Virus record (IMG/VR): IMGVR_UViG_3300029775_000400
DNA length: 34,772 nt
DNA from: a virus
Strand: one strand, 5' to 3'
Under the pieces are notes generated by a model. That model did no database searches and had not been told where the DNA came from. It saw only the letters and a program-made list of their open reading frames with translations. Positions 4,684-32,952 of the stretch are shown here, one piece after another. The position numbers and the translations under genes were made by a program. Numbering within the stretch: position 1 is the first letter of the stretch; the number at the start of each line of letters is the position of its first letter.

Positions 4684-5280
4684 TTAACACTCCCCTATTG
4701 CTTTTTTAGTTAAATCATGGATTAAAGAAGCAGTAATTGGATCTTGATAATATCCTAATGATTTCCAATTCCGGTTAAAAGAAATCCTACATTGCCAAGG
4801 TCTTCCTTCAGGATTCCCTCTTTTATCAAAGGTTGCTCCAGGATGTTTACCATATTTGGCTTTACTCATTTTTTCAATAGTTTTTTTAGGGTGTCTTCGT
4901 CCCCACATGGAATTATTTCCCCCTTTATGTGATTTACTCATTTTTTTTCGAGTTTCTTCTGAAAAACGGCCATGAGATCCGCCTTCTCTTATATTATAAC
5001 CCCATTTATCCACACTTGAATTATAATATATTATATAAAATTTTTCAAGAAGATTTAAATGGTTTTGATTTGTTATTTTTTGTTCTATGACTTTCCATGA
5101 AAAGTTTTCTTTTCCATATTTTTTTATAGCCATTTCTATTGCAGAATTAGGATGGGGCTTAGAATGGTGTTCATTTTTACGTTGTGGCCATTTTTGGATT
5201 GTTTGACCTACATAACATTTTCCATTTATCTTATTTTTGACTACATAGATCAACCCATTTACCTCGGTATTATTCGCCAT
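4684..5280 (-). CDS. Free-standing GIY-YIG homing endonuclease with NUMOD3-like repeats and AP2-like C-terminus
   Basis: GLIYVVKNKINGKCYVGQT; SEETRKKMSKSHKG and KKTIEKMSKAKYG; WQCRISFNRNWKSLGYY. Visibly more AT-rich than its flanks. Confidence 0.88.
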   Translation of the reverse strand: MANNTEVNGLIYVVKNKINGKCYVGQTIQKWPQRKNEHHSKPHPNSAIEMAIKKYGKENFSWKVIEQKITNQNHLNLLEKFYIIYYNSSVDKWGYNIREGGSHGRFSEETRKKMSKSHKGGNNSMWGRRHPKKTIEKMSKAKYGKHPGATFDKRGNPEGRPWQCRISFNRNWKSLGYYQDPITASLIHDLTKKAIGEC

Positions 5281-7055: not shown

Positions 7056-10000
7056 TCACCTCCTTAAAATCACAGTTGGCTTCAAACCGTTAGTTACAGC
7101 GCCTTTCTGCAGGCTTGAGGATATACTATTACCTAAAAGGTTCCCACCCTGATTCACAACATTCTTATCAGCATTACCGTTTACCTGAACCGCTCCATCC
7201 TGTACGGTTAAATAAATAACTGTTTGACCCACCTGTGAACTGTTAATGGCTTTTGTAAGGCCTGGGTTTGAGAGGTTTGAAAGTCTTGGGAGCTGCACCA
7301 TCTCATCCATATAACCTGTGAATCGTGATAAACCTGCAACTCCACCCTGGGCCAGACTTGCAGCCCAAGACTTCATGTTCTCTGCCTTAATGGTTGCTAA
7401 TGGTCCCTCTTTTGGTGGGGAATGTGGAAACATGTTGGAAATCCTGGTAAAAACAGAACTTAAATTAGGTAAACCCGCCGTGATACCACCAGACAGGTTA
7501 TTTATCATGGATAAACCAGTACTCCACAAGTGAGAAGAGGTTGACTGCATACTGGCCAGGAAACTAGAGGTTTTACTAGTTATTGATTCCAGGTTCACAT
7601 CCAAACCGCCAAAACCAGAAGATAAACCACTGCTAAGGCCATTTATGAGTTGATTACCCCAGTTCGCCCAGTTTCCAGCAGAAACATTGCTTAAAGGGCC
7701 GGTTTTAGGTGGACTGTGGGTTTCAGTCATTCCCTGAATAACACTCAAAGCTGACCTTAAACCCGGAATACCATTTAAAATTCCTTCCTCCAAACCATGG
7801 ACTATCTGGCCACCATAATTTTCCATTTTACCAGGAAGGGTTCCAAGCCACTGCATGAATTTATTCCATTCATTCTGGACCCATTGAACGGCTTCATGTT
7901 CTCCTTTCTCAATATCAGACCATTTAGGGATTGGAACCTTTGGAACGTGGCTTTCAACATAAGTTTTAAGAGCATTCCACTCATTCTGAACCCACTGTTT
8001 AGCAGGGTCCAAACCCTTTTCAACATCGGCCCAGGTAGGGACCTTCACCTTAGGAGTGTGCTGTGTAACATACTGCTGCAAACCACCCCACTTGGTTTGA
8101 ACCGTATTCTTAGCAGTATCTAAACCTTGATGAATTGTAGTCCAATTCAATTTCGTATTTGGGGCATGACTGGATACGTATTGTTTTAACTGGCCCCATT
8201 TTCCTTGAACTGTGCTTTTAGCGCCGTCTAATCCTTGGTGGATTGTACTCCAGTTCACTTTTGGAAGTTTAGAAGTTACATTACTACTTACATACTGCTG
8301 CAATTGGCCTAACTTAGTCTGCACCGTAGTTTTGGCACCATCCAAACCAGAAGTAAGACCAGACCAACTAATTTTAGGCATCTTATAACTTGATTCTAAA
8401 CTCACACCATGGCCTTTCAACCAACCAGGTAAGTTCAACTGATCTGCAAGTGAACCCGGTATGTTCTTGTTTCCTGCATTGCCTAAATCTGTTTTTAGAT
8501 GGTTAATTGGATCCCAATCTGGGGCGGATGGTGTATTAAACCCTAAAACGGCCCCCATAGACATAGAACCATTAGAAACTAAGGAACCAAGATTCCCAAG
8601 ACCTCCAAGACTTGCAGAACCTAAGTCAATTCCCTGCCCTTTCAACCAACCGGGGAGGTTTAATTGATCTGCCAAGGATCCGGGAACGTTTTTGTTCCCT
8701 GCATTTCCTATGTCTTTTTTCATCTGGTTTATTGGATCCCAATCTATGAGGGGCTGGTTATTTTCAAGGTTCCATAGTGGGTTTCCAGGAAGATCCATAC
8801 CTAAAAATACGCCTGCATCTGCAGCTCCCATGTTCAGCATGTCAAAAAGGGTGGTTCCTAGGCTGTAACCTACGGCTTTTCCACTTCCTACCTTAGCTGA
8901 TGTATATAAACCGTTAAGGAGGGTATCTACAATTTCACCGCCACCAGGTAATTTTCCTAGGGTGCCTTTTATTCCTCCTTTGATCTTGTCAAATATTGAT
9001 TCACCAGATCCTGTTGAAGATGAACCACCAGTTCCAGACCAATCTGGCTCATAGGTGCCTTCACTGTTTTTTGTCATTTCAATAGTTTTGGGTTCTTCAG
9101 TTCCACTTCCTACTGTTGGGGTTGTTCCTGTGGTTGTTCCGCTGCCAAAGATCCTGGTGTAAACGTTTGAACCATCTAAATCCCCTACTTTTAGTTTAAG
9201 ATTATCAATAATACCACTTATCTTGCTGTAAGCAGTGTCCCCCTCACCTGTGTCCTTAAATATTCTATCATAGACATCGTACCCGTTAAGTTCGTTTATC
9301 TTTGCCTTTGCATCATCAACAAAACCGGATACTTTCCCTTCTGCAGCTGTGACGGTTCCCTTTTCATCACCAAAGATTTTACTCCAAACATCTGAATCTT
9401 TCAGTTCACCAAGTTTGGCCTTGGTATCACTGATAAAACTAGAAATCCTGGAAGATAGATCGCTTAAACTTGTGTTTACACGGCCTTCCTCATCATCTAG
9501 GAAACTCTTTGTATCTCCATAGTAGTGCTCGTAGCCATCGTCTAATATTCCAGTTATCTTTTCTTTTGTACTTTCCACTTTACTGGTTAGTTTAGTCAGT
9601 GTTTCGGAAGATGAACTTTCTATCTTATTATTGTCTCCGTAATAGTGTTCGTAGCCTTCATCAAGTATTTCGTTTACTTTATTTTTTGTACTCTCAAATT
9701 TCTCAGTTATCTTGTCCAATGTTTCCGAGTTAGAGTCAACCGCTTTGTTATTGTCGCCGTAGTAATGTTCGTAACCATCATCAAGTACTCCAGTTATCTT
9801 GTCCTTTGCAGATGAAACCTTACTTACCAGGTCATCCCAACTAACTCCTTGGATACGGCCTTCTTCATCATCAAGGAATGATCCAGTTTTACCGTAGTAA
9901 TGATCGTAACCCTCATCAAGTATTTCACCTATTTTATCCTTAGTACTCTCAAATTTACCAGTTATCTTATCTAATATCTCAGAATTAGATTCTACGGCCT

Positions 10001-12818: not shown

Positions 12819-12907
12819 TTCTTTCAACTCCATTGGGCTTTGATGAAAAAAAGTAAATAATAGAAATCATGAGAAAAAATAATAACTAAAAAGAGAGGAT
12901 CTTAAAA

Positions 12908-13312
12908 ATGAAAATAGGATATTTAGTGTGTACCAAATGCGGTAGCTACTATGAAATCCAACCACAAGACCATCCAGATGAATTCAGCGGGAAATGTGAA
13001 TGCGGTGGAAACATAAAATTTGTCAGATACAATGATTTTAATGATACTAACCGTAAAATTGGTGCAGGCTCTCCTTGGGAAATAAAAAGAAGAAGAGATA
13101 AAGGAGAGATAGTTGTGAATATAATTGCTGGGGGCATACCGTTTATATTAGGGTTATCCTGTTTTTATTTTGTATTTTGTGATTGGAAATCTCTTAATTA
13201 TGGTTATACAGAAGATATATTTTTTTTAATATTGTTAGGTATAGGCTTGTGCTTCATCGGTATTCTTGGGATGTTTGGTGGTTTTGTACCTAAAAAGGAT
13301 AGAGGTAGTTAA
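12908..13312 (+). CDS. Membrane protein with N-terminal Zn-ribbon (GYLVCTKCG...KCECGG) and 2 TM segments
   Basis: CxxC...CxC motif followed by two hydrophobic stretches. Confidence 0.8.
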   Translation: MKIGYLVCTKCGSYYEIQPQDHPDEFSGKCECGGNIKFVRYNDFNDTNRKIGAGSPWEIKRRRDKGEIVVNIIAGGIPFILGLSCFYFVFCDWKSLNYGYTEDIFFLILLGIGLCFIGILGMFGGFVPKKDRGS

Positions 13313-13909
13313 ATGAAATTAATGAAATATGTTTTTTTAATTGTTGTTTTAGCGTTGGTGGCTTTTTTTATGTTTGGATCCTCTTCAACGGCATATAATA
13401 ACCAGTATTATTCATTTAATTATCCTAATAATTGGACTAAGGAAACTGACACAAATAATTCATATGAAACTACTTCTGTATTAGTCCCAAATTATTCTAA
13501 CTTGGAACATCAAGTTAATATTGCCATAAGTGGTCCAGAAAATGAATCTATTGATTACAATTTGAACAGTTCTCGTGACTTATTTATGTCTACCAATAGC
13601 AAAGTTTTCCCAAATGAATCATATTTTGAGGATAAAGATCTAGTCAGTGACCCTGAATTCAAAGTATTGATAAACAAAACAATCAGAGTGAATGGCATGA
13701 ATGGTTTTGATGTGGCTACTTATGATGCATCCCCTTGGTATTTGAATTCCCCTCATGAAGTTGTAGAAGAAGTCATGTTACAGAAGGGAACTAAAGTTTA
13801 TACATTAAGGTTAACATGTTCTCCTATGGCCATAACCCAAGATCCTAATATATTCAATACCACCCACAAAGAGTTTGAAAGTGTTGTAACCAGCTTTAAA
13901 GGAAAATAA
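13313..13909 (+). CDS. Membrane-anchored/secreted PsbP-like protein
   Basis: Hydrophobic N-terminus; YSFNYPNNW and TIRVNGMNGF motifs typical of PsbP/DcrB-like folds. Confidence 0.6.
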   Translation: MKLMKYVFLIVVLALVAFFMFGSSSTAYNNQYYSFNYPNNWTKETDTNNSYETTSVLVPNYSNLEHQVNIAISGPENESIDYNLNSSRDLFMSTNSKVFPNESYFEDKDLVSDPEFKVLINKTIRVNGMNGFDVATYDASPWYLNSPHEVVEEVMLQKGTKVYTLRLTCSPMAITQDPNIFNTTHKEFESVVTSFKGK

Positions 13910-14020
13910 CTTTTAAATTTCATTCTTTGCGTTTCTCTAATTTTTTGGATTTAGAAAGAAATAGAAAGAAATATACATAATTTGATAAGATTAATTCATA
14001 AAGTACGGGGAGGTGATTAA

Positions 14021-14770
14021 GTGGGTTATTTGAAGTGTGATAAGTGTGGTGGTTCCTATGAACTACAAGAAGGGGAATCTCCTGAGGATTTTAGTGATAA
14101 ATGTGAGTGTGGTGGAACTTTAAGATATGTTGAAAATCTTGATACAAATTTTAGTGATGAATTGCCTAAAAAGAAGATTACTAAGAAATCTTTAGCTGTG
14201 ATTGGTTGTTCTGTTTTTGTTTTGATTCTTGTTGGAGCTTTTATTATTTATCCGGCTTATGCTTCTGCTATGTATAATTATCATTTTGGTGAAGCTAATA
14301 AAGATATTAGTAATGCTAAAGCTGCTTCTTCACAGGTGGATGCGTTGAATAAACCTTTAGATTCTGATATTCAGTCAACAGAAGAAAGTCAGAATTATAC
14401 TGAAAAAGCCATTAAGGAATTTCAATCTATGTCTTATTATGCTCCTGACAAACCTTCTAAGGAATATGCAGATCTACGTTCCAAACAGTTCCAAGAGGTT
14501 GATCAATGGGATAACATCTCTATACGGACTTTCCAAAATATGCAATCAAGTGGAACTTTGGCAGTGGCTTTAACTTTCCAGTCAACATCTGCACCACAAA
14601 TATACTCAATTCAAACAGATATCACAAGTTATCAGGATCAAATCGTCCAGCTTGTTGAAAGTAATCCTAACTTAAAACAACGCAGAATTGATGTGTTAGG
14701 GGAAGATACTGCTAGTAAACTGGGAACATATAATTTTAATGATAGTTCCAACTCAGTTTACTTTGCTTGA
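14021..14770 (+). CDS. Zn-ribbon (GYLKCDKCG...KCECGG), TM and helical ectodomain membrane protein
   Basis: GGGAGGTGA RBS and GTG start; N-terminal domain paralogous to that of 12908..13312. Confidence 0.82.
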
Positions 14771-27445: not shown

Positions 27446-27576
27446 CAAAAAATAGTTTACCAACTGGTACATTTTTTTAAGCTCTCATTCAATTTTATAC
27501 ACATTAAAATGATGAATGCGATTGTAGCTATGAGAACGTAAAAGTAGAACATTGTTAGGTCCATTTTAAGCACCTT

Positions 27577-27897
27577 TTAGAACCTGATTTTGAGTCCAAG
27601 TCCTATGAGAACACCGATAATGCTTGCAAGGACCATGAGGACGTTTGTTGTTTTGTTAAAAATAGAATCGTTATTGTTGTTTATTGCGTTTATGATGTCC
27701 ACTTTTTTGTCCACGTTGTTTACGGCGGTTTTGATTTCATCGAGTTTGTCGTCTGTATCCTTTTTTTCTGATTCAACACCATCAAGTCGTCTGTTGATTG
27801 ATGTGAAGAGGTCTTCATGGATACATTCGTGGCCTTGTGGCTCTGTTTTCATCTTCAAAGAACTCTTTGATCCAGGTTCATCTAGTAATCTACCCAT
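27577..27897 (-). CDS. Coiled-coil protein with C-terminal TM (XhlA/holin-like)
   Basis: Heptad stretch followed by VLMVLASIIGVLIGLGL; AGGTGA RBS. Confidence 0.6.
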   Translation of the reverse strand: MGRLLDEPGSKSSLKMKTEPQGHECIHEDLFTSINRRLDGVESEKKDTDDKLDEIKTAVNNVDKKVDIINAINNNNDSIFNKTTNVLMVLASIIGVLIGLGLKIRF

Positions 27898-27923
27898 GAG
27901 GATCACCTTTTTCCATCAAAATT

Positions 27924-28136
27924 TTATTCTTTTACAAATGCAGTATTGCCACCAACAGCCTGTATTAAAACCACAAGACCGTTCAGTACGGTTATTGCAA
28001 ATGTTATGTAAGCTGCCTGCGATGCAGAAACCATTGACTGTAAATATGTCAACATTGGTACTACAACAATAATTACCTGCACTGCTGCTGCTAACTGACC
28101 TGCTCCTGTCAAATTCTTAAATGCTTCAACTGCCAT
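27924..28136 (-). CDS. Two-TM holin-like protein, 70 aa
   Basis: Two hydrophobic helices and a short polar tail; GGAGG RBS. Confidence 0.55.
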   Translation of the reverse strand: MAVEAFKNLTGAGQLAAAVQVIIVVVPMLTYLQSMVSASQAAYITFAITVLNGLVVLIQAVGGNTAFVKE

Positions 28137-28225
28137 TTCCAATTCCTCCTAAAATTTTTTTTATTCAAACAAAAAGCGTATTAATAATAAACTATAATTT
28201 ATTAAGTATGTGTGGGTGATACAAG

Positions 28226-28537
28226 ATGTTAGATTACGTGGAGTATACAATTCAAAAAAACTCTCCAAATGCCACAATCATAAACCTAGTCTTTAAAGAT
28301 CCATCTAAACATGAAAAAGACCGGAAAGACCTGGAAAACTTTTTAGATAAAATCCTAAACTTAGGATCTGAAATCATAGAAGGCCATATCACCTTCAAAA
28401 GTTCATGTGAACTTCACCTAACAGTTCGCTGCCCCGAAGAATACTGGTTTAAATTAGATGAAACCACAAGACAAAAAGAAATTGTAAAACAATCCCACAT
28501 ACTCCAAGACATGTACAACCAAGAATTCAATGAATAA
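28226..28537 (+). CDS. Hypothetical protein
   Basis: 103-aa ORF with GGGTGA RBS on the opposite strand. Confidence 0.65.
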   Translation: MLDYVEYTIQKNSPNATIINLVFKDPSKHEKDRKDLENFLDKILNLGSEIIEGHITFKSSCELHLTVRCPEEYWFKLDETTRQKEIVKQSHILQDMYNQEFNE

Positions 28538-28748
28538 TCTTAAAGTTGGGGCCTGGTTCTACGCAGGCTCCCAAAAAATAGAGTTCAAACCTTCACGGCT
28601 ATAAAGGAATGAAAATAAAGTAATTTAAAGTGGAAAATGGGGGATTTAAACCCCCTCTTGGCTTCGATTTGTTTGAAGAGATCTTGGTTTTTAGGGGAAA
28701 CTTTTTCTATGTTCCCTTACCCTATCTTCTGGACGTAAAGTAATGTGG

Positions 28749-29147
28749 TCATTTTGCATGGATCCATGCTAATTTTTTGGATAATTTTTGATGGTAATCA
28801 TCATAATCAGGATTTCCTTCACTGTCAAGTTTGGGTTTAGGTATCTTCATTGTTCCAGGCCCCCAGGTTCTTTTAGATCTTAATTTTTGGGCGTATGCGA
28901 TTCTTTCTTGTTCTGCATGCTCAAATTTATCTCTCTTTGCTCTGATTTTGGCATCTATAATCTTTTTCTGTGCCCTATGTGCTTTTATTCTGCAAATATC
29001 CCCACAATAAATCCGATATCCCTGATTGTATTGCACAAATAGGTGATGGCATATAGGGCAAACCTTTAAAATACTGCGTCTTGGTGAATACTTAATTCCT
29101 TCATGTAATCCCCAGCGTGGAACTTTTGGAACATGTGGGATACTCAT
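28749..29147 (-). CDS. Zn-finger basic protein
   Basis: CPICHHLF...YCGDICRIKAHR followed by a basic helix. Confidence 0.7.
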   Translation of the reverse strand: MSIPHVPKVPRWGLHEGIKYSPRRSILKVCPICHHLFVQYNQGYRIYCGDICRIKAHRAQKKIIDAKIRAKRDKFEHAEQERIAYAQKLRSKRTWGPGTMKIPKPKLDSEGNPDYDDYHQKLSKKLAWIHAK

Positions 29148-29734
29148 AAGACCACATTCCCTTCATGCATCTGTATTTGGCCTTGAACCAAGCCACACTT
29201 TGGACAGACTACTTCCCCACGGTCCAGGTCCTGCACGCTAATGTTGCAGCCACATTCTTCACATTTTAAAACCTTTTCCACGTGAACCAATGGCATGCTC
29301 TTCTTATTTTTAACTGCTGCCATTTTTTCTTCCAAACAGCTTAAAAGTCTGGGATAACTTTTATAATTTGAAATTTCCTCACCAAAATTATAGTTTCTCA
29401 TCTCAAATTCCTCAAAAAAAGATTTATCACTATATAAAACATCAACCGTAACTCCCTTGAGAATTACCTCCTCATCTTCTTTGATATTTCTCAACGCAAA
29501 TATCTCAAAAAAATCCTTAACCTTTACAGGCTTCCATTTCTTTGTAATTAATGTATGGCAGTATGGACAAGTACCCGCATCCGTAGCAACTGCATCACAT
29601 TTAGGACAATGCGGTTTACCTGATTGGATCCTCGACGGCAACCGTTCAAGTTGAGGATTAAATGCTGTTTTAACCTGAGAAGGTTCACACTTTCCATGCT
29701 TTGAATTAAAGATTTTCCCACAATCTACACCCAA
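29144..29734 (-). CDS. Multi-Zn-ribbon protein with C-terminal TFIIB-type Zn ribbon
   Basis: GGAGGT RBS and TTG start; CPKC...CPYC; KCEECGCNISVQDLDRGEVVCPKCGLV. Confidence 0.75.
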   Translation of the reverse strand: MGVDCGKIFNSKHGKCEPSQVKTAFNPQLERLPSRIQSGKPHCPKCDAVATDAGTCPYCHTLITKKWKPVKVKDFFEIFALRNIKEDEEVILKGVTVDVLYSDKSFFEEFEMRNYNFGEEISNYKSYPRLLSCLEEKMAAVKNKKSMPLVHVEKVLKCEECGCNISVQDLDRGEVVCPKCGLVQGQIQMHEGNVVL

Positions 29735-29862
29735 AAACAAACCTCCATAAAACCCATAATAATATATACGTAACCAAGAGGGGTATAAACTAAAACACGA
29801 AAAATAAGCCAAAAATTAGGGTTAATATTCTTTTGAAAATCTTAATTAAAAAAAATAGAAAT

Positions 29863-30049: not shown

Positions 30050-30385
30050 TTAAACATTCCTATAAATCCAGACATTCCGAGTATTCTTGGTCCTGGGATC
30101 ATATTTGCTTTTGTTACTGAAGCCTAATTGATCTGCCATTTTCCGACCCATATACCTGACAGCCTTTTTACTATCCTGTAATGTACGATAACTTGGATGT
30201 ATAAGCTTTAAATCTTTCAGGTAAGAATACATGAACTCCGCTGTTGACTCTCCAAAGTTCCGTATAAACCATTTCTCAAAAGATTCCAAATCCTCCGAGT
30301 TCCGTATCGGTCTATCCCAGCAGGGCCATCCCTTATTTGATAACACTGTTTGAACCACCATAATACCTCCGTTTAGTTCAACCAA
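30050..30385 (-). CDS. Hypothetical basic protein
   Basis: ORF collinear with its neighbours; start uncertain (30385 or 30361). Confidence 0.6.
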   Translation of the reverse strand: MVELNGGIMVVQTVLSNKGWPCWDRPIRNSEDLESFEKWFIRNFGESTAEFMYSYLKDLKLIHPSYRTLQDSKKAVRYMGRKMADQLGFSNKSKYDPRTKNTRNVWIYRNV

Positions 30386-30860: not shown

Positions 30861-30883
30861 AACATTTCGCTTCCTTTTATATT

Positions 30884-30912
30884 TTAAGATGTAACTTATT
30901 ATTACATCTTAA
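30884..30912. promoter_or_regulatory. Perfect 11-bp inverted repeat, candidate operator
   Basis: TTAAGATGTAA-cttatta-TTACATCTTAA in the divergent intergenic region. Confidence 0.55.
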
Positions 30913-31130
30913 TATTAACTAAGTTTCAATGTTCTTATAAAGATGTTGATTTAAACAAAAATTAAACGTTTATTCTCAAATTAAACTGTTAACTACGTCT
31001 TAATAAAATAGAATATTTCTATTTCTCTTTATTATCTCGATAAATTTTTCTATTATAATCGGAACAGGAACTTTTATTATTAGAACCCTGAAAACCTCAT
31101 AATAATACTAAGTAGGAGGTGAATTATGCA

Positions 31131-31502
31131 ATGGATAAGAAAATAATAATGGTTTTAACTGTATTTTTGATTGTGGGTGTGGTTGCTGTTTCAGGTTGCA
31201 CAAGCTCGGATAACATGACAACATCTGCAAATACATCTATGAGTAATGCTTCAACGCCAGTTGAGAACACAGCAACACCTGCAACTACAGAACAGAATAG
31301 CACAGTGACAACTACTGCAACGCCCTCAACAACAGCATCCTCTGCAAGTGCAGCATATGTGGGAAATTCAAACACACATAAATTCCACTTAGCAAGTTGC
31401 AGATATGTATCTAAGATGAGTGAGGATCATAAAGTCTATTTCAACACAAGAGATGAAGCAATAGCTCAAGGATACGTACCATGTAAAGTATGCAACCCCT
31501 GA
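31131..31502 (+). CDS. Lipoprotein-like protein with S/T-rich linker and Ada-type metal-binding domain
   Basis: VAVSGC lipobox; YVGNSNTHKFHLASC...EAIAQGYVPCKVCNP; GGAGGTGA RBS. Confidence 0.85.
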   Translation: MDKKIIMVLTVFLIVGVVAVSGCTSSDNMTTSANTSMSNASTPVENTATPATTEQNSTVTTTATPSTTASSASAAYVGNSNTHKFHLASCRYVSKMSEDHKVYFNTRDEAIAQGYVPCKVCNP

Positions 31503-31586: not shown

Positions 31587-32297
31587 ATGAAGATTAGAAC
31601 TATTTCAAGCATTGTTATAATATTCTTAGTTATCATAGATGTTTTCGTGATTACATGGTCTAGTTTCTCTAATGTAGGGGTTTTACTTGCACAAGGTATA
31701 ATCTATTTTGATTTAGCTGTCTGTTTTATACTTTTCTGTGATTTTATGCTCAGACTCCATGAAACAGAAGATAAAAAAGCATTTTTTAAAAATAAATGGA
31801 CATGGATTGACATAATCGCAATGATACCAATAGAATTCGCCCCTTTCAGATTTCTAAGATTAATACGAGTACTTATCCTACTAAACAAAGGTTCAAAACT
31901 TCTAAAAGAGTTTATTGAGGAAACTCACCTTGATTGGAGTTTTGGAATATTATTAATGACTGTTATTGCAGGTACAATCCTTTTTTACATTGTAGAAGCC
32001 GGAATAAATACAAACGTGCATAACTTAGGAGATGCTTTCTGGTATGTTCTACCAACCATGACAACAGATGGTGGAAATATATACCCAGCAACAGTATCCG
32101 GCAGACTAATCAGTATGACCGTGATGATCATAGGCGTCCTTTTCCTGGGGATGTTCACAGCACAAATAGCCTCATGGCTTACAGAAAAATCCGGAAAGAA
32201 CTGCGAACAAAACGAGATACAAGAACTAAAAGGAGAAATGCAAGAGTTACAGTCTGAGATCGTGGAACTAAAAGAAATAATCAGGAAGAATAAATAA
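31587..32297 (+). CDS. 6TM voltage-gated-type cation channel homolog with non-canonical filter
   Basis: S1-S3 (WIDIIAMIP), S4 RFLRLIR, pore region DAFWYVLPTMTTDGGNIYPATVSGR, S6, and a C-terminal coiled coil. Confidence 0.88.
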   Translation: MKIRTISSIVIIFLVIIDVFVITWSSFSNVGVLLAQGIIYFDLAVCFILFCDFMLRLHETEDKKAFFKNKWTWIDIIAMIPIEFAPFRFLRLIRVLILLNKGSKLLKEFIEETHLDWSFGILLMTVIAGTILFYIVEAGINTNVHNLGDAFWYVLPTMTTDGGNIYPATVSGRLISMTVMIIGVLFLGMFTAQIASWLTEKSGKNCEQNEIQELKGEMQELQSEIVELKEIIRKNK

Positions 32298-32530
32298 TTT
32301 ATTAATTAATAATAATTAATTAAATAATAATATAATATATAATATAATAAAATAAGGTATAATCAAGGAACTCCACGTGTAATCTACATGTGTACACGTG
32401 GAAGCTCCACGTATAGTTTTTTTTACACTTGAAAAAGTACACGTGCAACGTGTATGTGGCACGTGTAGTTTATGAGGGTATACCATTTTTACACTTGTTA
32501 CACTTGCAGCACTTGCAACTGAACTACACT
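32290..32530. repeat. AT-rich tract plus CAC[G/T]TG repeat array, candidate replication origin
   Basis: Almost pure A/T run from about 32290 to 32355. CACGTG at 32374, 32395, 32440 and 32460; CACTTG at about 32426, 32492, 32501 and 32510; 9-bp inverted repeat at 32372-32380/32394-32402. Confidence 0.6.
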
Positions 32531-32952
32531 GAAGTGATGTTGAACTCATCAATCTCACCCTTATCAATTGGAGTTATCACTTTCTCCTGGACTAACTGTT
32601 TAAACTCTGCTTTACCCATACCCAACTTCACACGATTATTCCTTAAAATATCTGGCAAAATGGCCTGTTCCCTTAGGTAGGCCCGTCTCAATCTGATAAT
32701 TACCTCATTTTGCATGTCAGGATCAACTATAATATCCTCTTTTAATGAGTCAATTTCTGATTCAACTTCTGTTAACCTTTGAAGTAGGTTGCCTCTTTCT
32801 TTTTCAAGTGCACTGTACCTTGCAGATTTACCCATGAGGTACTTGTAACCCTCTAAAAGGGCATAAGAAGGATTAATTCCCTCATTCTTTCCCTCTTTTA
32901 TAAGGGCTTCATCCTTCTTTTTAATGTACACTGTTATGTTTTTACCGGCCAT
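32524..32952 (-). CDS. RHH-like DNA-binding protein with coiled coil
   Basis: KNITVYI...GINPSYAL pattern, followed by a heptad segment. Confidence 0.55.
   Translation of the reverse strand: MAGKNITVYIKKKDEALIKEGKNEGINPSYALLEGYKYLMGKSARYSALEKERGNLLQRLTEVESEIDSLKEDIIVDPDMQNEVIIRLRRAYLREQAILPDILRNNRVKLGMGKAEFKQLVQEKVITPIDKGEIDEFNITSV

What the first reader, a model, noticed from the sequence alone, without database searches (positions are those of the whole stretch)
31587..32297. Virus-borne 6TM K+-channel homolog with a rewritten selectivity filter (TTDGGN)
Seen: the pore region reads AFWYVLPTMTTDG-GNIYP (DNA ACC ATG ACA ACA GAT GGT GGA AAT ATA TAC CCA). Established: K+ selectivity needs TTVGYGD, and the non-selective NaK channel has TVGDGN. 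Here V becomes D, the Tyr is absent (one residue shorter) and D becomes N, while the rest of the 6TM frame is intact; S4 keeps only three Arg. Inference: a non-selective or leaky cation channel, or a dominant-negative subunit that changes host membrane potential. In a Na+/H+-gradient-dependent methanogen this could block superinfection or time lysis.
Basis: partly seen in the sequence, partly recalled or inferred. Interest (0 to 1): 0.75.

Follow-up and report, generated by a model that had tools for sequence, protein, structure and literature searches.

The report
Host-derived GYG-less channel in methanogen virus
A tailed virus of Methanobacterium carries an intact, conserved six-helix ion-channel gene whose potassium filter lacks the usual Gly-Tyr-Gly, but the virus copied this filter from a family of host chromosomal channels rather than inventing it.

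Summary
ORF 31587-32297 (+) encodes a 236-aa KvAP-like 6TM protein. Its pore loop reads TMTTDG-GNIYP where KvAP has TATTVGYGDVVP.

The gene is virus-borne. Three virus lineages with three different terminases share one early-gene module, and the cassette sits inside it with viral genes on both sides. The identical protein occurs on at least 26 contigs, the longest 195 kb, so these are probably integrated proviruses.

The "rewritten filter" reading does not hold. A single Methanobacteriaceae clade (24 sampled proteins, SH-aLRT 96) lacks GYG. Its TDGGN subclade includes chromosomal genes of M. paludis and relatives, 61-82% identical to the viral protein. Viral copies are nested inside it, so the virus most likely captured a host gene. 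Only Thr159 (Ala in most relatives) is special to the viral lineage.

dN/dS of 0.10-0.28 and exact recovery in 16 runs of 5 studies exclude an assembly error or a pseudogene.

The best reading is a host-derived moron: a voltage-sensor-bearing tetrameric cation channel, probably poorly K+-selective like NaK. Ion selectivity and the benefit to the virus were not tested.

Bacterial temperate phages carry the same short 6TM plus coiled-coil architecture with a canonical filter. This is a new variant of a known kind, of moderate interest.

The parts
31587..32297 (+). Channel gene, 236 aa plus stop (P0001). It is a KvAP-like 6TM protein of the K+-channel superfamily.
   Evidence: The exact protein is on at least 26 contigs.
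31593..31820 (+). S1 (aa 3-27), S2 (aa 32-59) and a short S3 (aa 70-78). Acidic residues Asp42, Asp52 and Asp75 and the IDIIAMIP motif are present.
   Evidence: AF2 helices. Conservation in A1: D42 is nearly invariant and I77-P81 are invariant. That these residues form a charge-transfer centre is my comparison with Kv channels from memory, not a test.
31839..31898 (+). S4 (aa 85-104, APFRFLRLIRVLILLNKGSK). It has Arg88, Arg91 and Arg94 at every third position, then Lys101 and Lys104. It is shorter than S4 of paralogues, which carry 4-6 charges.
   Evidence: R88 and R91 are invariant in A1.
31929..32060 (+). S5 (aa 115-137) and the pore helix (aa 147-158, LGDAFWYVLPTM). Pro156 is clade-specific.
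32055..32087 (+). Pore loop or filter, TMTTDGGNIYP (aa 157-167). Thr160 and Gly162 are kept, Val is replaced by Asp161, the Tyr is deleted, and Asp is replaced by Asn164.
   Evidence: KvAP alignment. Family survey. Codons are conserved in 7 independent DNA sequences.
32094..32186 (+). S6 (aa 170-200). Gly172 and Gly183 are invariant.
32205..32294 (+). C-terminal heptad repeat (aa 207-236). The a/d positions are I211, L214, M218, L221, I225, L228 and I232. It continues S6 as one helix and is a likely tetramerisation coiled coil.
   Evidence: Sequence. AF2 helix 170-235. The same feature occurs in the Lactobacillus phage JNU_P5 homologue.
31131..31502 (+). Upstream cassette partner, a 123-aa lipoprotein-like protein. 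It has an N-terminal hydrophobic anchor ending in SGC, a Thr/Ser-rich linker and a C-terminal Ada_Zn_binding ('sunset') domain.
   Evidence: Pfam PF02805, 9.1e-07. Weak NCBIfam sunset-variant hits. A gene of this kind lies immediately upstream of the channel in L027-L031, L056, L012/L013 and the P0002 and P0005 contigs.
30861..31130 (+). AT-rich intergenic region upstream of the cassette, with TATA-like runs and an AGGAGGTG ribosome-binding site at 31113-31120. It is the putative cassette promoter, not tested.
   Evidence: Sequence only.

Best explanation
The gene encodes a voltage-sensor-bearing, probably tetrameric cation channel of the K+-channel superfamily. A lineage of temperate tailed Methanobacterium viruses captured it from the host, together with a small sunset-domain lipoprotein gene. 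The two genes form a two-gene moron on the strand opposite to all flanking viral genes.

Shown: the fold and family; the GYG-less pore loop; its conservation under purifying selection; its origin in a monophyletic GYG-less clade of Methanobacteriaceae chromosomal channels; and its position inside the virus.

Inferred: the loop keeps the inner Thr and the first Gly but lacks the Tyr and one residue. It probably keeps only the inner ion sites and conducts monovalent cations with little K+/Na+ discrimination, as NaK does. Three S4 arginines and the acidic partners in S2 and S3 are kept, so the channel is probably still gated by voltage and closed at rest.

Most speculative: the gene is expressed from the provirus as a lysogenic-conversion function that adds a host-type cation conductance. 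Possible benefits are ion homeostasis of the lysogen or exclusion of incoming viruses. It is probably not a lysis device.
For: - **Family and fold:** Pfam hits are above the cut-offs. KvAP is the best solved relative, at E 2e-15. The AF2 model has pLDDT 85.7 with 6TM, a pore helix and a C-terminal helix. Foldseek places Kv channels on top.
- **Filter:** the alignment to KvAP and a survey of 170 relatives.
- **Host clade:** all 24 GYG-less rows form one clade (SH-aLRT 96) nested among TTVGYGD channels, and the window protein lies inside the 11-row TDGGN subclade.
- **Chromosomal orthologues:** they carry the same loop at a conserved non-viral locus with Lon, HTH, Lactamase_B, SSF, AMP-binding and ACT genes. 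Canonical paralogues coexist in the same genomes.
- **Selection:** dN/dS is 0.10-0.28 at dS 0.24-1.4, and the filter codons are conserved.
- **Not an artefact:** the exact stretch is in 16 runs of 5 studies, and the exact protein is on at least 26 contigs.
- **Inside the virus:** the window holds TerS, TerL, portal, protease, major capsid protein and tape measure protein. Identical or near-identical cassettes are flanked by viral genes on both sides, with PCNA-like, Bro-N and HNH genes to the right. They occur in lineages with three different terminases. The mosaic junction is near 27459.
- **NaK precedent:** TVGDGN keeps only sites S3 and S4 and is non-selective (PMC9822992 abstract).
- **Phage precedent:** PHROG 7872 matches at E 2.6e-26. 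In Lactobacillus phage JNU_P5 the homologous ion transporter follows the gene annotated 'transcriptional regulator', on the same strand and divergent from the Cro/CI-family regulator and antirepressor genes.
Against: - No functional data exist for any member of the GYG-less clade, so selectivity, conduction and gating are inferred from sequence only.
- The loop differs from NaK. It is one residue shorter, and the Asp precedes the Gly instead of following it.
- The loop sequence varies widely across the clade (ATDGGN, ATEGSNN, LATGSSS, ATVGADG, VSGNSD). This could mean that ion selection is not the selected property.
- Asp161 is Asn in one relative (P0007).
- Expression from the provirus is not shown.
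- The direction of transfer, host to virus, rests on tree nesting and on synteny of the cellular copies, not on a formal test.
Confidence: 0.6

Rival explanations
1. The protein is a non-conducting or regulatory derivative. The pore is collapsed or plugged, and the protein works as a voltage sensor, a scaffold, or a subunit that co-assembles with cellular paralogues and modifies them.
For: The loop sequence is highly variable across the GYG-less clade. The viral protein is 61-82% identical to cellular orthologues and has a similar C-terminal coiled coil, so mixed tetramers are conceivable.
Against: The pore helix, Thr160, Gly162, Pro167 and the S6 glycines Gly172 and Gly183 are conserved. Purifying selection acts on the whole protein, loop included. 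The viral and cellular copies share the same loop, so nothing marks the viral copy as a poison subunit.
Confidence: 0.12
2. The channel is still K+-selective and achieves selectivity by a different loop geometry.
For: The Thr-Thr pair, the first Gly and the pore-helix Trp are retained. K+ selectivity without a canonical filter exists in other families, such as TMEM175 (title and abstract).
Against: The Tyr is deleted, so the loop is too short to build four carbonyl sites. NaK loses selectivity with a smaller change (PMC9822992). Canonical TTVGYGD paralogues coexist in the same genomes, which suggests that the functions have diverged.
Confidence: 0.12
3. The channel is a lysis-timing or depolarising device, working like a holin, that collapses the Na+/H+ gradient late in infection.
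For: A voltage-gated, poorly selective cation pore could give all-or-none depolarisation. This is inference only.
Against: The gene lies on the opposite strand, between the early and packaging modules and not in the lysis position. Two small membrane-protein ORFs lie next to terS at 27577-28142. At 236 aa and 6TM it is unlike a holin. Chromosomal orthologues at non-viral loci show a cellular role.
Confidence: 0.1
4. The gene is a host gene lying beside an integrated provirus and is not part of the virus.
For: The exact protein occurs on contigs up to 195 kb, so the element is probably integrated. DNA contigs of other samples diverge from the window left of 27459.
Against: The divergent left part in L027-L031 and L056 is another packaging module (portal, terminase, protease). 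The 10 kb to the right of the channel are small minus-strand viral genes that include PCNA-like, Bro-N and HNH genes.
Confidence: 0.03
5. The unusual filter is an assembly or sequencing error, or the gene is a decaying pseudogene.
For: None found.
Against: The same loop is found in seven independent DNA sequences. The exact stretch occurs in 16 runs of 5 studies. dN/dS is 0.10-0.28. A real pseudogene copy with two TGA stops exists in another genome and looks different.
Confidence: 0.01

Closest known systems
KvAP (Aeropyrum pernix voltage-gated K+ channel; PDB 1orq, 2a0l, 6uwm)
   Same: It is the best solved sequence relative (E 2e-15). It shares the 6TM layout, an S4 with Arg at every third position, the S2 and S3 acidic residues, the pore helix and the ...P-x-T-x-x-G... 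S6 entry.
   Different: The filter is TTDG-GN instead of TTVGYGD. S3 and S4 are shortened, with 3 Arg instead of more. A C-terminal heptad coiled coil is present.
NaK (Bacillus cereus non-selective cation channel, filter TVGDGN)
   Same: It is a K+-channel-derived pore that has lost the Tyr and ends in Gly-Asn. NaK is the precedent that such loops keep only the inner sites and conduct Na+ and K+ (PMC9822992).
   Different: NaK is a 2TM channel without a voltage sensor. Its loop has the normal length, with the Asp after the first Gly. Here the Asp comes before the Gly and the loop is one residue shorter. No specific sequence relationship to NaK was found.
Short 6TM channels of bacterial temperate phages (PHROG 7872; Lactobacillus phage JNU_P5 'ion transporter', Lactobacillus phage PLE, Enterococcus and Listeria phage records)
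   Same: The PHROG match is full length (E 2.6e-26). The proteins have about the same size, the same C-terminal coiled coil, and sit in a temperate virus. In JNU_P5 the gene lies just downstream of the gene annotated 'transcriptional regulator', on the same strand. Greiner et al. 2018 report the PLE protein as identical to a host protein (PMC6163359).
   Different: All those examined carry canonical TTVGYGD. Their hosts are bacteria. Identity to the window protein is only 26-31%.
Chromosomal TDGGN channels of Methanobacterium paludis and relatives (P0004, P0006, P0008-P0011)
   Same: They share the ATDGGN loop, the truncated S4 and the coiled coil, at 61-82% identity. They form the same subclade in the tree.
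   Different: They sit at a cellular locus (Lon ... Lactamase_B, SSF, AMP-binding, ACT) and have no sunset-domain gene upstream. The M. paludis group has a coiled coil about 45 residues longer. They carry Ala where the window has Thr159.
MVP (Methanocaldococcus hyperpolarisation-activated K+ channel; NCBIfam NF040645)
   Same: It is the weak best NCBIfam hit (2.1e-10) and is an archaeal 6TM channel.
   Different: The score is 40.8 bits against a cut-off of 300, so the window protein is not a member.

Membership tests
Voltage-gated K+ channel superfamily (Pfam Ion_trans PF00520 and Ion_trans_2 PF07885) | Domain models matched above the curated cut-offs | tested here: met
   39.7 bits against 25, and 39.6 bits against 22.5.
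Voltage-gated K+ channel superfamily | Six transmembrane helices with a re-entrant pore helix between S5 and S6 | tested here: met
   AF2 model at pLDDT 85.7. Foldseek top hits are Kv1.3, KCNQ2, Kv4.2 and Kv2.1, at E about 2e-7. S3 is short.
Voltage-gated K+ channel superfamily | S4 with basic residues at every third position | tested here: met
   R88, R91 and R94, followed by K101 and K104. This is fewer than in the paralogues.
K+-selective channels | Signature T-x-G-[YF]-G-D in the pore loop | tested here: not met
   The loop is TTDG-GN. The Tyr is absent, and Val and Asp are replaced.
K+-selective channels | Tetrameric assembly and selective K+ conduction | not testable with these tools
   This needs biochemistry, electrophysiology or cryo-EM. 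The C-terminal heptad repeat in the sequence is compatible with a tetramer but does not show one.
NaK-type non-selective channels | 2TM architecture with filter TVGDGN | tested here: not met
   The protein has 6TM with a voltage-sensor domain. The loop is one residue shorter and the Asp precedes the Gly.
MVP equivalog (NCBIfam NF040645) | Score above the curated cut-off | tested here: not met
   40.8 bits against 300.
GYG-less Methanobacteriaceae clade (unnamed, defined here) | Placement inside the monophyletic clade whose members all lack G[YF]G | tested here: met
   The clade has 24 rows with SH-aLRT 96. The window protein lies in the TDGGN subclade, which has support 99 (quick tree, the careful search did not finish).
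Phage short 6TM channels (PHROG 7872) | Full-length profile match | tested here: met
   E 2.6e-26, residues 6-234 against profile positions 14-253 of 254. The phage members examined have a canonical filter.
Holins | A small protein with 1-4 TM helices encoded next to the endolysin | tested here: not met
   The protein is 236 aa with 6TM, on the opposite strand between the early and packaging modules.

The most novel reading that the evidence does not exclude
The TDGGN loop, one residue shorter than any characterised K+-channel-type filter and with a ring of four Asp before the Gly, may define a new selectivity type, for example divalent-sensitive or Na+-preferring. The virus-borne copy may act as a voltage-triggered 'fuse' that collapses the methanogen's Na+/H+ gradient, to exclude superinfecting viruses or to abort infection. 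I found no earlier report of an ion channel with a defined role in an archaeal virus in the papers I searched.
Probability: 0.12. Interest if true: 0.75.

Novelty: new variant of a known kind. Interest (0 to 1): 0.45.

Why it matters
The finding identifies an uncharacterised, naturally diversified clade of Kv-like channels that lost the Gly-Tyr-Gly signature once and then explored many loop sequences. All of them are under purifying selection, and canonical paralogues sit beside them in the same genomes. This is a ready-made natural series for asking what the minimal P-loop needs for conduction and selectivity.

It also shows that temperate archaeal viruses carry host-type ion channels, as bacterial temperate phages do. 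I found no report of this: Greiner et al. 2018 does not mention archaea, and two archaeal-virus surveys do not mention channels.

The cassette stays with one early-gene module across three different packaging modules. This suggests that it benefits the virus or its lysogen.

Tried and rejected
- **Tetramer prediction:** four copies with alignment A2 gave no verdict (score 0.14 against a mark of 0.42). It is not evidence either way.
- **RNA-library contigs:** run X18 has small contigs on 31119-31438 (identical) and 31792-31972 (94% identical, so from a relative). Run X17 covers the flanking early genes but not the channel. These are Logan contigs from oligo-dT libraries that may contain DNA, so they show nothing about expression.
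- **Whole genome:** none is held for the window.
- **Megablast of the structural module against the phage collection:** no match. At protein level the best TerL hit is Methanobacterium virus Drs3, at 30%.
- **IMG/VR scan with the channel alignment:** it found only distant bacterial-phage-type homologues at 26-27%.
- **IMG/VR relative by TerL (L011, 62%):** it is a fragment 36% complete with no channel match, so it is uninformative.
- **GTDB genome scan by peptide patterns:** it returned only 11 loci and missed known carriers. The family-wide six-frame search replaced it.
- **Exact look-up of the 143-aa neighbour:** it failed because the gene as called starts one codon later.
- **Literature search for TDGGN, ATDGGN and TTDGGN:** only unrelated papers came up.
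- **GC content:** the cassette is 31-32% GC, but the neighbouring early genes are 31-37%, so composition does not mark it as foreign.
- **tRNA genes:** none in the window.
- **Provirus ends:** integrase and att sites were not located, because the provirus ends lie outside the DNA I could fetch.

Full report
**1. The observation**

The ORF at 31587-32297 on the + strand is open and encodes 236 residues. It passes the curated Pfam cut-offs for Ion_trans and Ion_trans_2.

Its best solved relatives are the KvAP entries 6uwm, 1orq and 2a0l, at E 2e-15 to 7e-15. HMMER aligns its pore loop TMTTDG-GNIYP with KvAP TATTVGYGDVVP.

S4 reads APFRFLRLIRVLILLNKGSK, with Arg88, Arg91 and Arg94.

An AlphaFold2 model built on a 64-row alignment has mean pLDDT 85.7. 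It shows:
- S1 (aa 3-27), S2 (aa 32-59) and a short S3 (aa 70-78);
- S4 with its linker (aa 89-113) and S5 (aa 115-137);
- a pore helix (aa 147-158);
- S6 running on as one helix to residue 235.

Foldseek against the PDB returns Kv1.3, KCNQ2, Kv4.2 and Kv2.1 over 200-250 columns.

The last 30 residues form a clean heptad repeat, with I211, L214, M218, L221, I225, L228 and I232 at the a/d positions.

**2. Not an artefact and not a pseudogene**

- Nei-Gojobori comparisons of the window gene with six independent homologous DNA sequences give dN/dS of 0.10-0.23, and all pairs fall in 0.10-0.28, at dS of 0.24-1.4. The loop codons are conserved.
- The exact 3-kb stretch around the gene is held by 16 sequencing runs from 5 studies, covering fermentation, soil and other metagenomes from 2014 to 2025.
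- The exact protein is on at least 26 contigs.

**3. The gene is virus-borne**

The window encodes a small and a large terminase subunit, a portal, a maturation protease, a major capsid protein and a 1925-aa tape measure protein. The closest catalogued large terminase is that of Methanobacterium virus Drs3, at 30% identity.

The channel and a 123-aa gene just upstream (31131-31502) are the only + strand genes in a run of small minus-strand genes.

Contigs L027-L031 carry the identical channel protein. From about 29760 to the window's right end they match the window at 100% in translated comparison (tblastx), and from 27565 to 29760 at about 80-96%. To the left they hold a different packaging module: a 467-aa Terminase_6C protein, a 530-aa Phage_portal protein and an S78 protease. 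To the right they continue for 10 kb with small viral genes, including PCNA-like, Bro-N and HNH/AP2 proteins.

Contig L056 carries a copy that differs at four residues and has the same TTDGGN loop. It has the same early module and a third terminase type (402 aa, Terminase_3/6N).

DNA contigs from two further samples break away from the window at 27459, just upstream of terS. The cassette therefore belongs to an early-gene module that has recombined with at least three structural modules.

Contigs of up to 195 kb carry both the channel and the window's terminase, so the virus is probably an integrated provirus.

**4. The filter comes from the host**

The closest proteins in a 5.8-billion-protein collection are all from Methanobacterium-type contigs, and the nearer ones carry ATDGG-N.

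Four of them are chromosomal:
- P0008 and P0010 (61-64% identical; P0010 is M. paludis, CP002772) lie between Lon/HTH and Lactamase_B/SSF/AMP-binding/ACT genes in two genomes.
- P0004 and P0006 (81-83% identical, about 84% at DNA level) lie next to the same ACT and AMP-binding genes.

Among 170 relatives, the nearest ones lack G[YF]G. Their loops include ATDGGN, GTNGGN, ATEGSNN, LATGSSS, ATVGADG, ATVGSVD, VSGNSD and ITAGSGD. From about 43% identity downward the loop is TTVGYGD.

In a maximum-likelihood tree of 71 full-length rows, all 24 close GYG-less rows form one clade (SH-aLRT 96). It sits among canonical channels, and the window protein lies inside the 11-row TDGGN subclade, which has support 99. 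This was the quick tree, because the careful search did not finish.

Six-frame searches of Methanobacteriaceae genomes gave the following:
- Canonical and GYG-less paralogues sit side by side in the same genomes.
- 12 of 120 sampled genomes have a match at E 1e-40 or better.
- Only 2 of those 12 have the TDGGN type.

The simplest history is this. A duplicate of a Methanobacteriaceae short Kv-type channel lost the GYG once. The loop then diversified, and one variant was later captured by a virus. The host-to-virus direction is an inference from nesting and from the shared synteny of the cellular copies. Only Thr159 (Ala in most relatives, Gly in P0007) distinguishes the viral lineage P0001/P0171.

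**5. How it probably works**

*Shown.* The pore helix, the inner Thr (T160), the first Gly (G162), Pro167 and the S6 glycines G172 and G183 are conserved. S4 keeps three arginines. Asp42, Asp52, Arg56 and the IDIIAMIP motif with Asp75 are conserved. That these correspond to the Kv charge-transfer residues is my comparison from memory, not a test.

*Inferred.* Without the Tyr and with one residue fewer, the loop cannot build the four carbonyl sites of a K+ filter. NaK, with TVGDGN, keeps only sites S3 and S4 and is non-selective (PMC9822992). A poorly selective monovalent cation channel, still voltage-gated and closed at rest, is therefore the most likely function.

*Caveats.*
- The loop differs from NaK's.
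- The Asp precedes the Gly.
- One relative has Asn at the Asp position.
- The loop varies widely across the clade.
- No member of the clade has been studied.

**6. What it does for the virus**

This is the weakest part of the account. The cassette has the form of a moron: it lies on the opposite strand, has its own AT-rich upstream region and a strong ribosome-binding site, and is host-derived.

Bacterial temperate phages carry the same short 6TM plus coiled-coil protein with a canonical filter (PHROG 7872, E 2.6e-26). In Lactobacillus phage JNU_P5 the gene follows the gene annotated 'transcriptional regulator', on the same strand and divergent from the Cro/CI-family regulator and antirepressor genes. 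Greiner et al. 2018 list phage K+ channels, all with G(Y/F)GD, and note that the Lactobacillus phage PLE protein is identical to a host protein. Archaea are not mentioned in that paper (PMC6163359).

I therefore favour a lysogenic-conversion role over a lysis role.

**7. Novelty**

Two archaeal-virus surveys that I checked do not mention channels, and the loop motif is not in the searchable literature. Carriage of a K+-channel-superfamily gene by an archaeal virus and the GYG-less host clade both appear to be undescribed.

The protein is a variant of a well-known family, and the virus did not redesign it. I rate it a new variant of a known kind, of moderate interest.

Noticed in passing
window 27459 (junction); L027-L031, L056: There is modular mosaicism. 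The early-gene module carrying the channel is joined to three different packaging modules just upstream of terS: TerL of 517 aa in the window, 467 aa (Terminase_6C) in L027-L031, and 402 aa (Terminase_3/6N) in L056. DNA contigs of other samples become unlike the window exactly at 27459.
   Followed up: partly
window 31012-31502; L012 2185-3806: The 123-aa sunset-domain lipoprotein gene looks like a recombinant of two adjacent genes seen in L012/L013 (124 aa and 351 aa, both ending in an Ada_Zn_binding domain). Window 31012-31498 matches the first gene at 88%, and 31327-32300 matches the end of the second gene plus the channel at 85%, so about 1.1 kb is deleted in the window. A sunset-domain gene precedes the channel in every viral-type context seen, which suggests a functional partner.
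   Followed up: partly
L055 (G002:C10:76000-95900), about 9120-9820 and 12897-13073: The MAG that holds the chromosomal TDGGN gene P0008 has a second copy, 60% identical, with loop GTDGGN and two in-frame TGA stops. It lies 3.2 kb from a homologue (75% aa) of window ORF 30050-30385. It is probably the remnant of a related provirus.
   Followed up: partly
L012 211-2102 and 4683-5150: A related cassette (channel 88% identical) sits with a DpnII/MboI-type restriction enzyme, a NERD-domain protein and a pyridoxamine-oxidase-like gene. It is followed by a homologue (76% DNA identity) of window gene 32524-32952. This looks like an accessory or defence-type cargo region in a related element.
   Followed up: no
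window 12908-14770 (+ strand): A second + strand island of low GC (31-36%) interrupts the minus-strand tail module. Its ORFs are 134 aa, 198 aa (a weak PsbP-like Pfam match) and 249 aa. The first 120 bases of the 249-aa ORF resemble the start of the NERD gene of L012.
   Followed up: no
window 4684-5280 (-): A GIY-YIG/NUMOD3 homing-endonuclease-like ORF lies inside the tail gene module.
   Followed up: no
window 32298-32523: A tract of about 65 bp of pure A/T, followed by CACGTG-type repeats, lies directly downstream of the channel stop codon, where the cassette converges with the minus-strand early genes.
   Followed up: no
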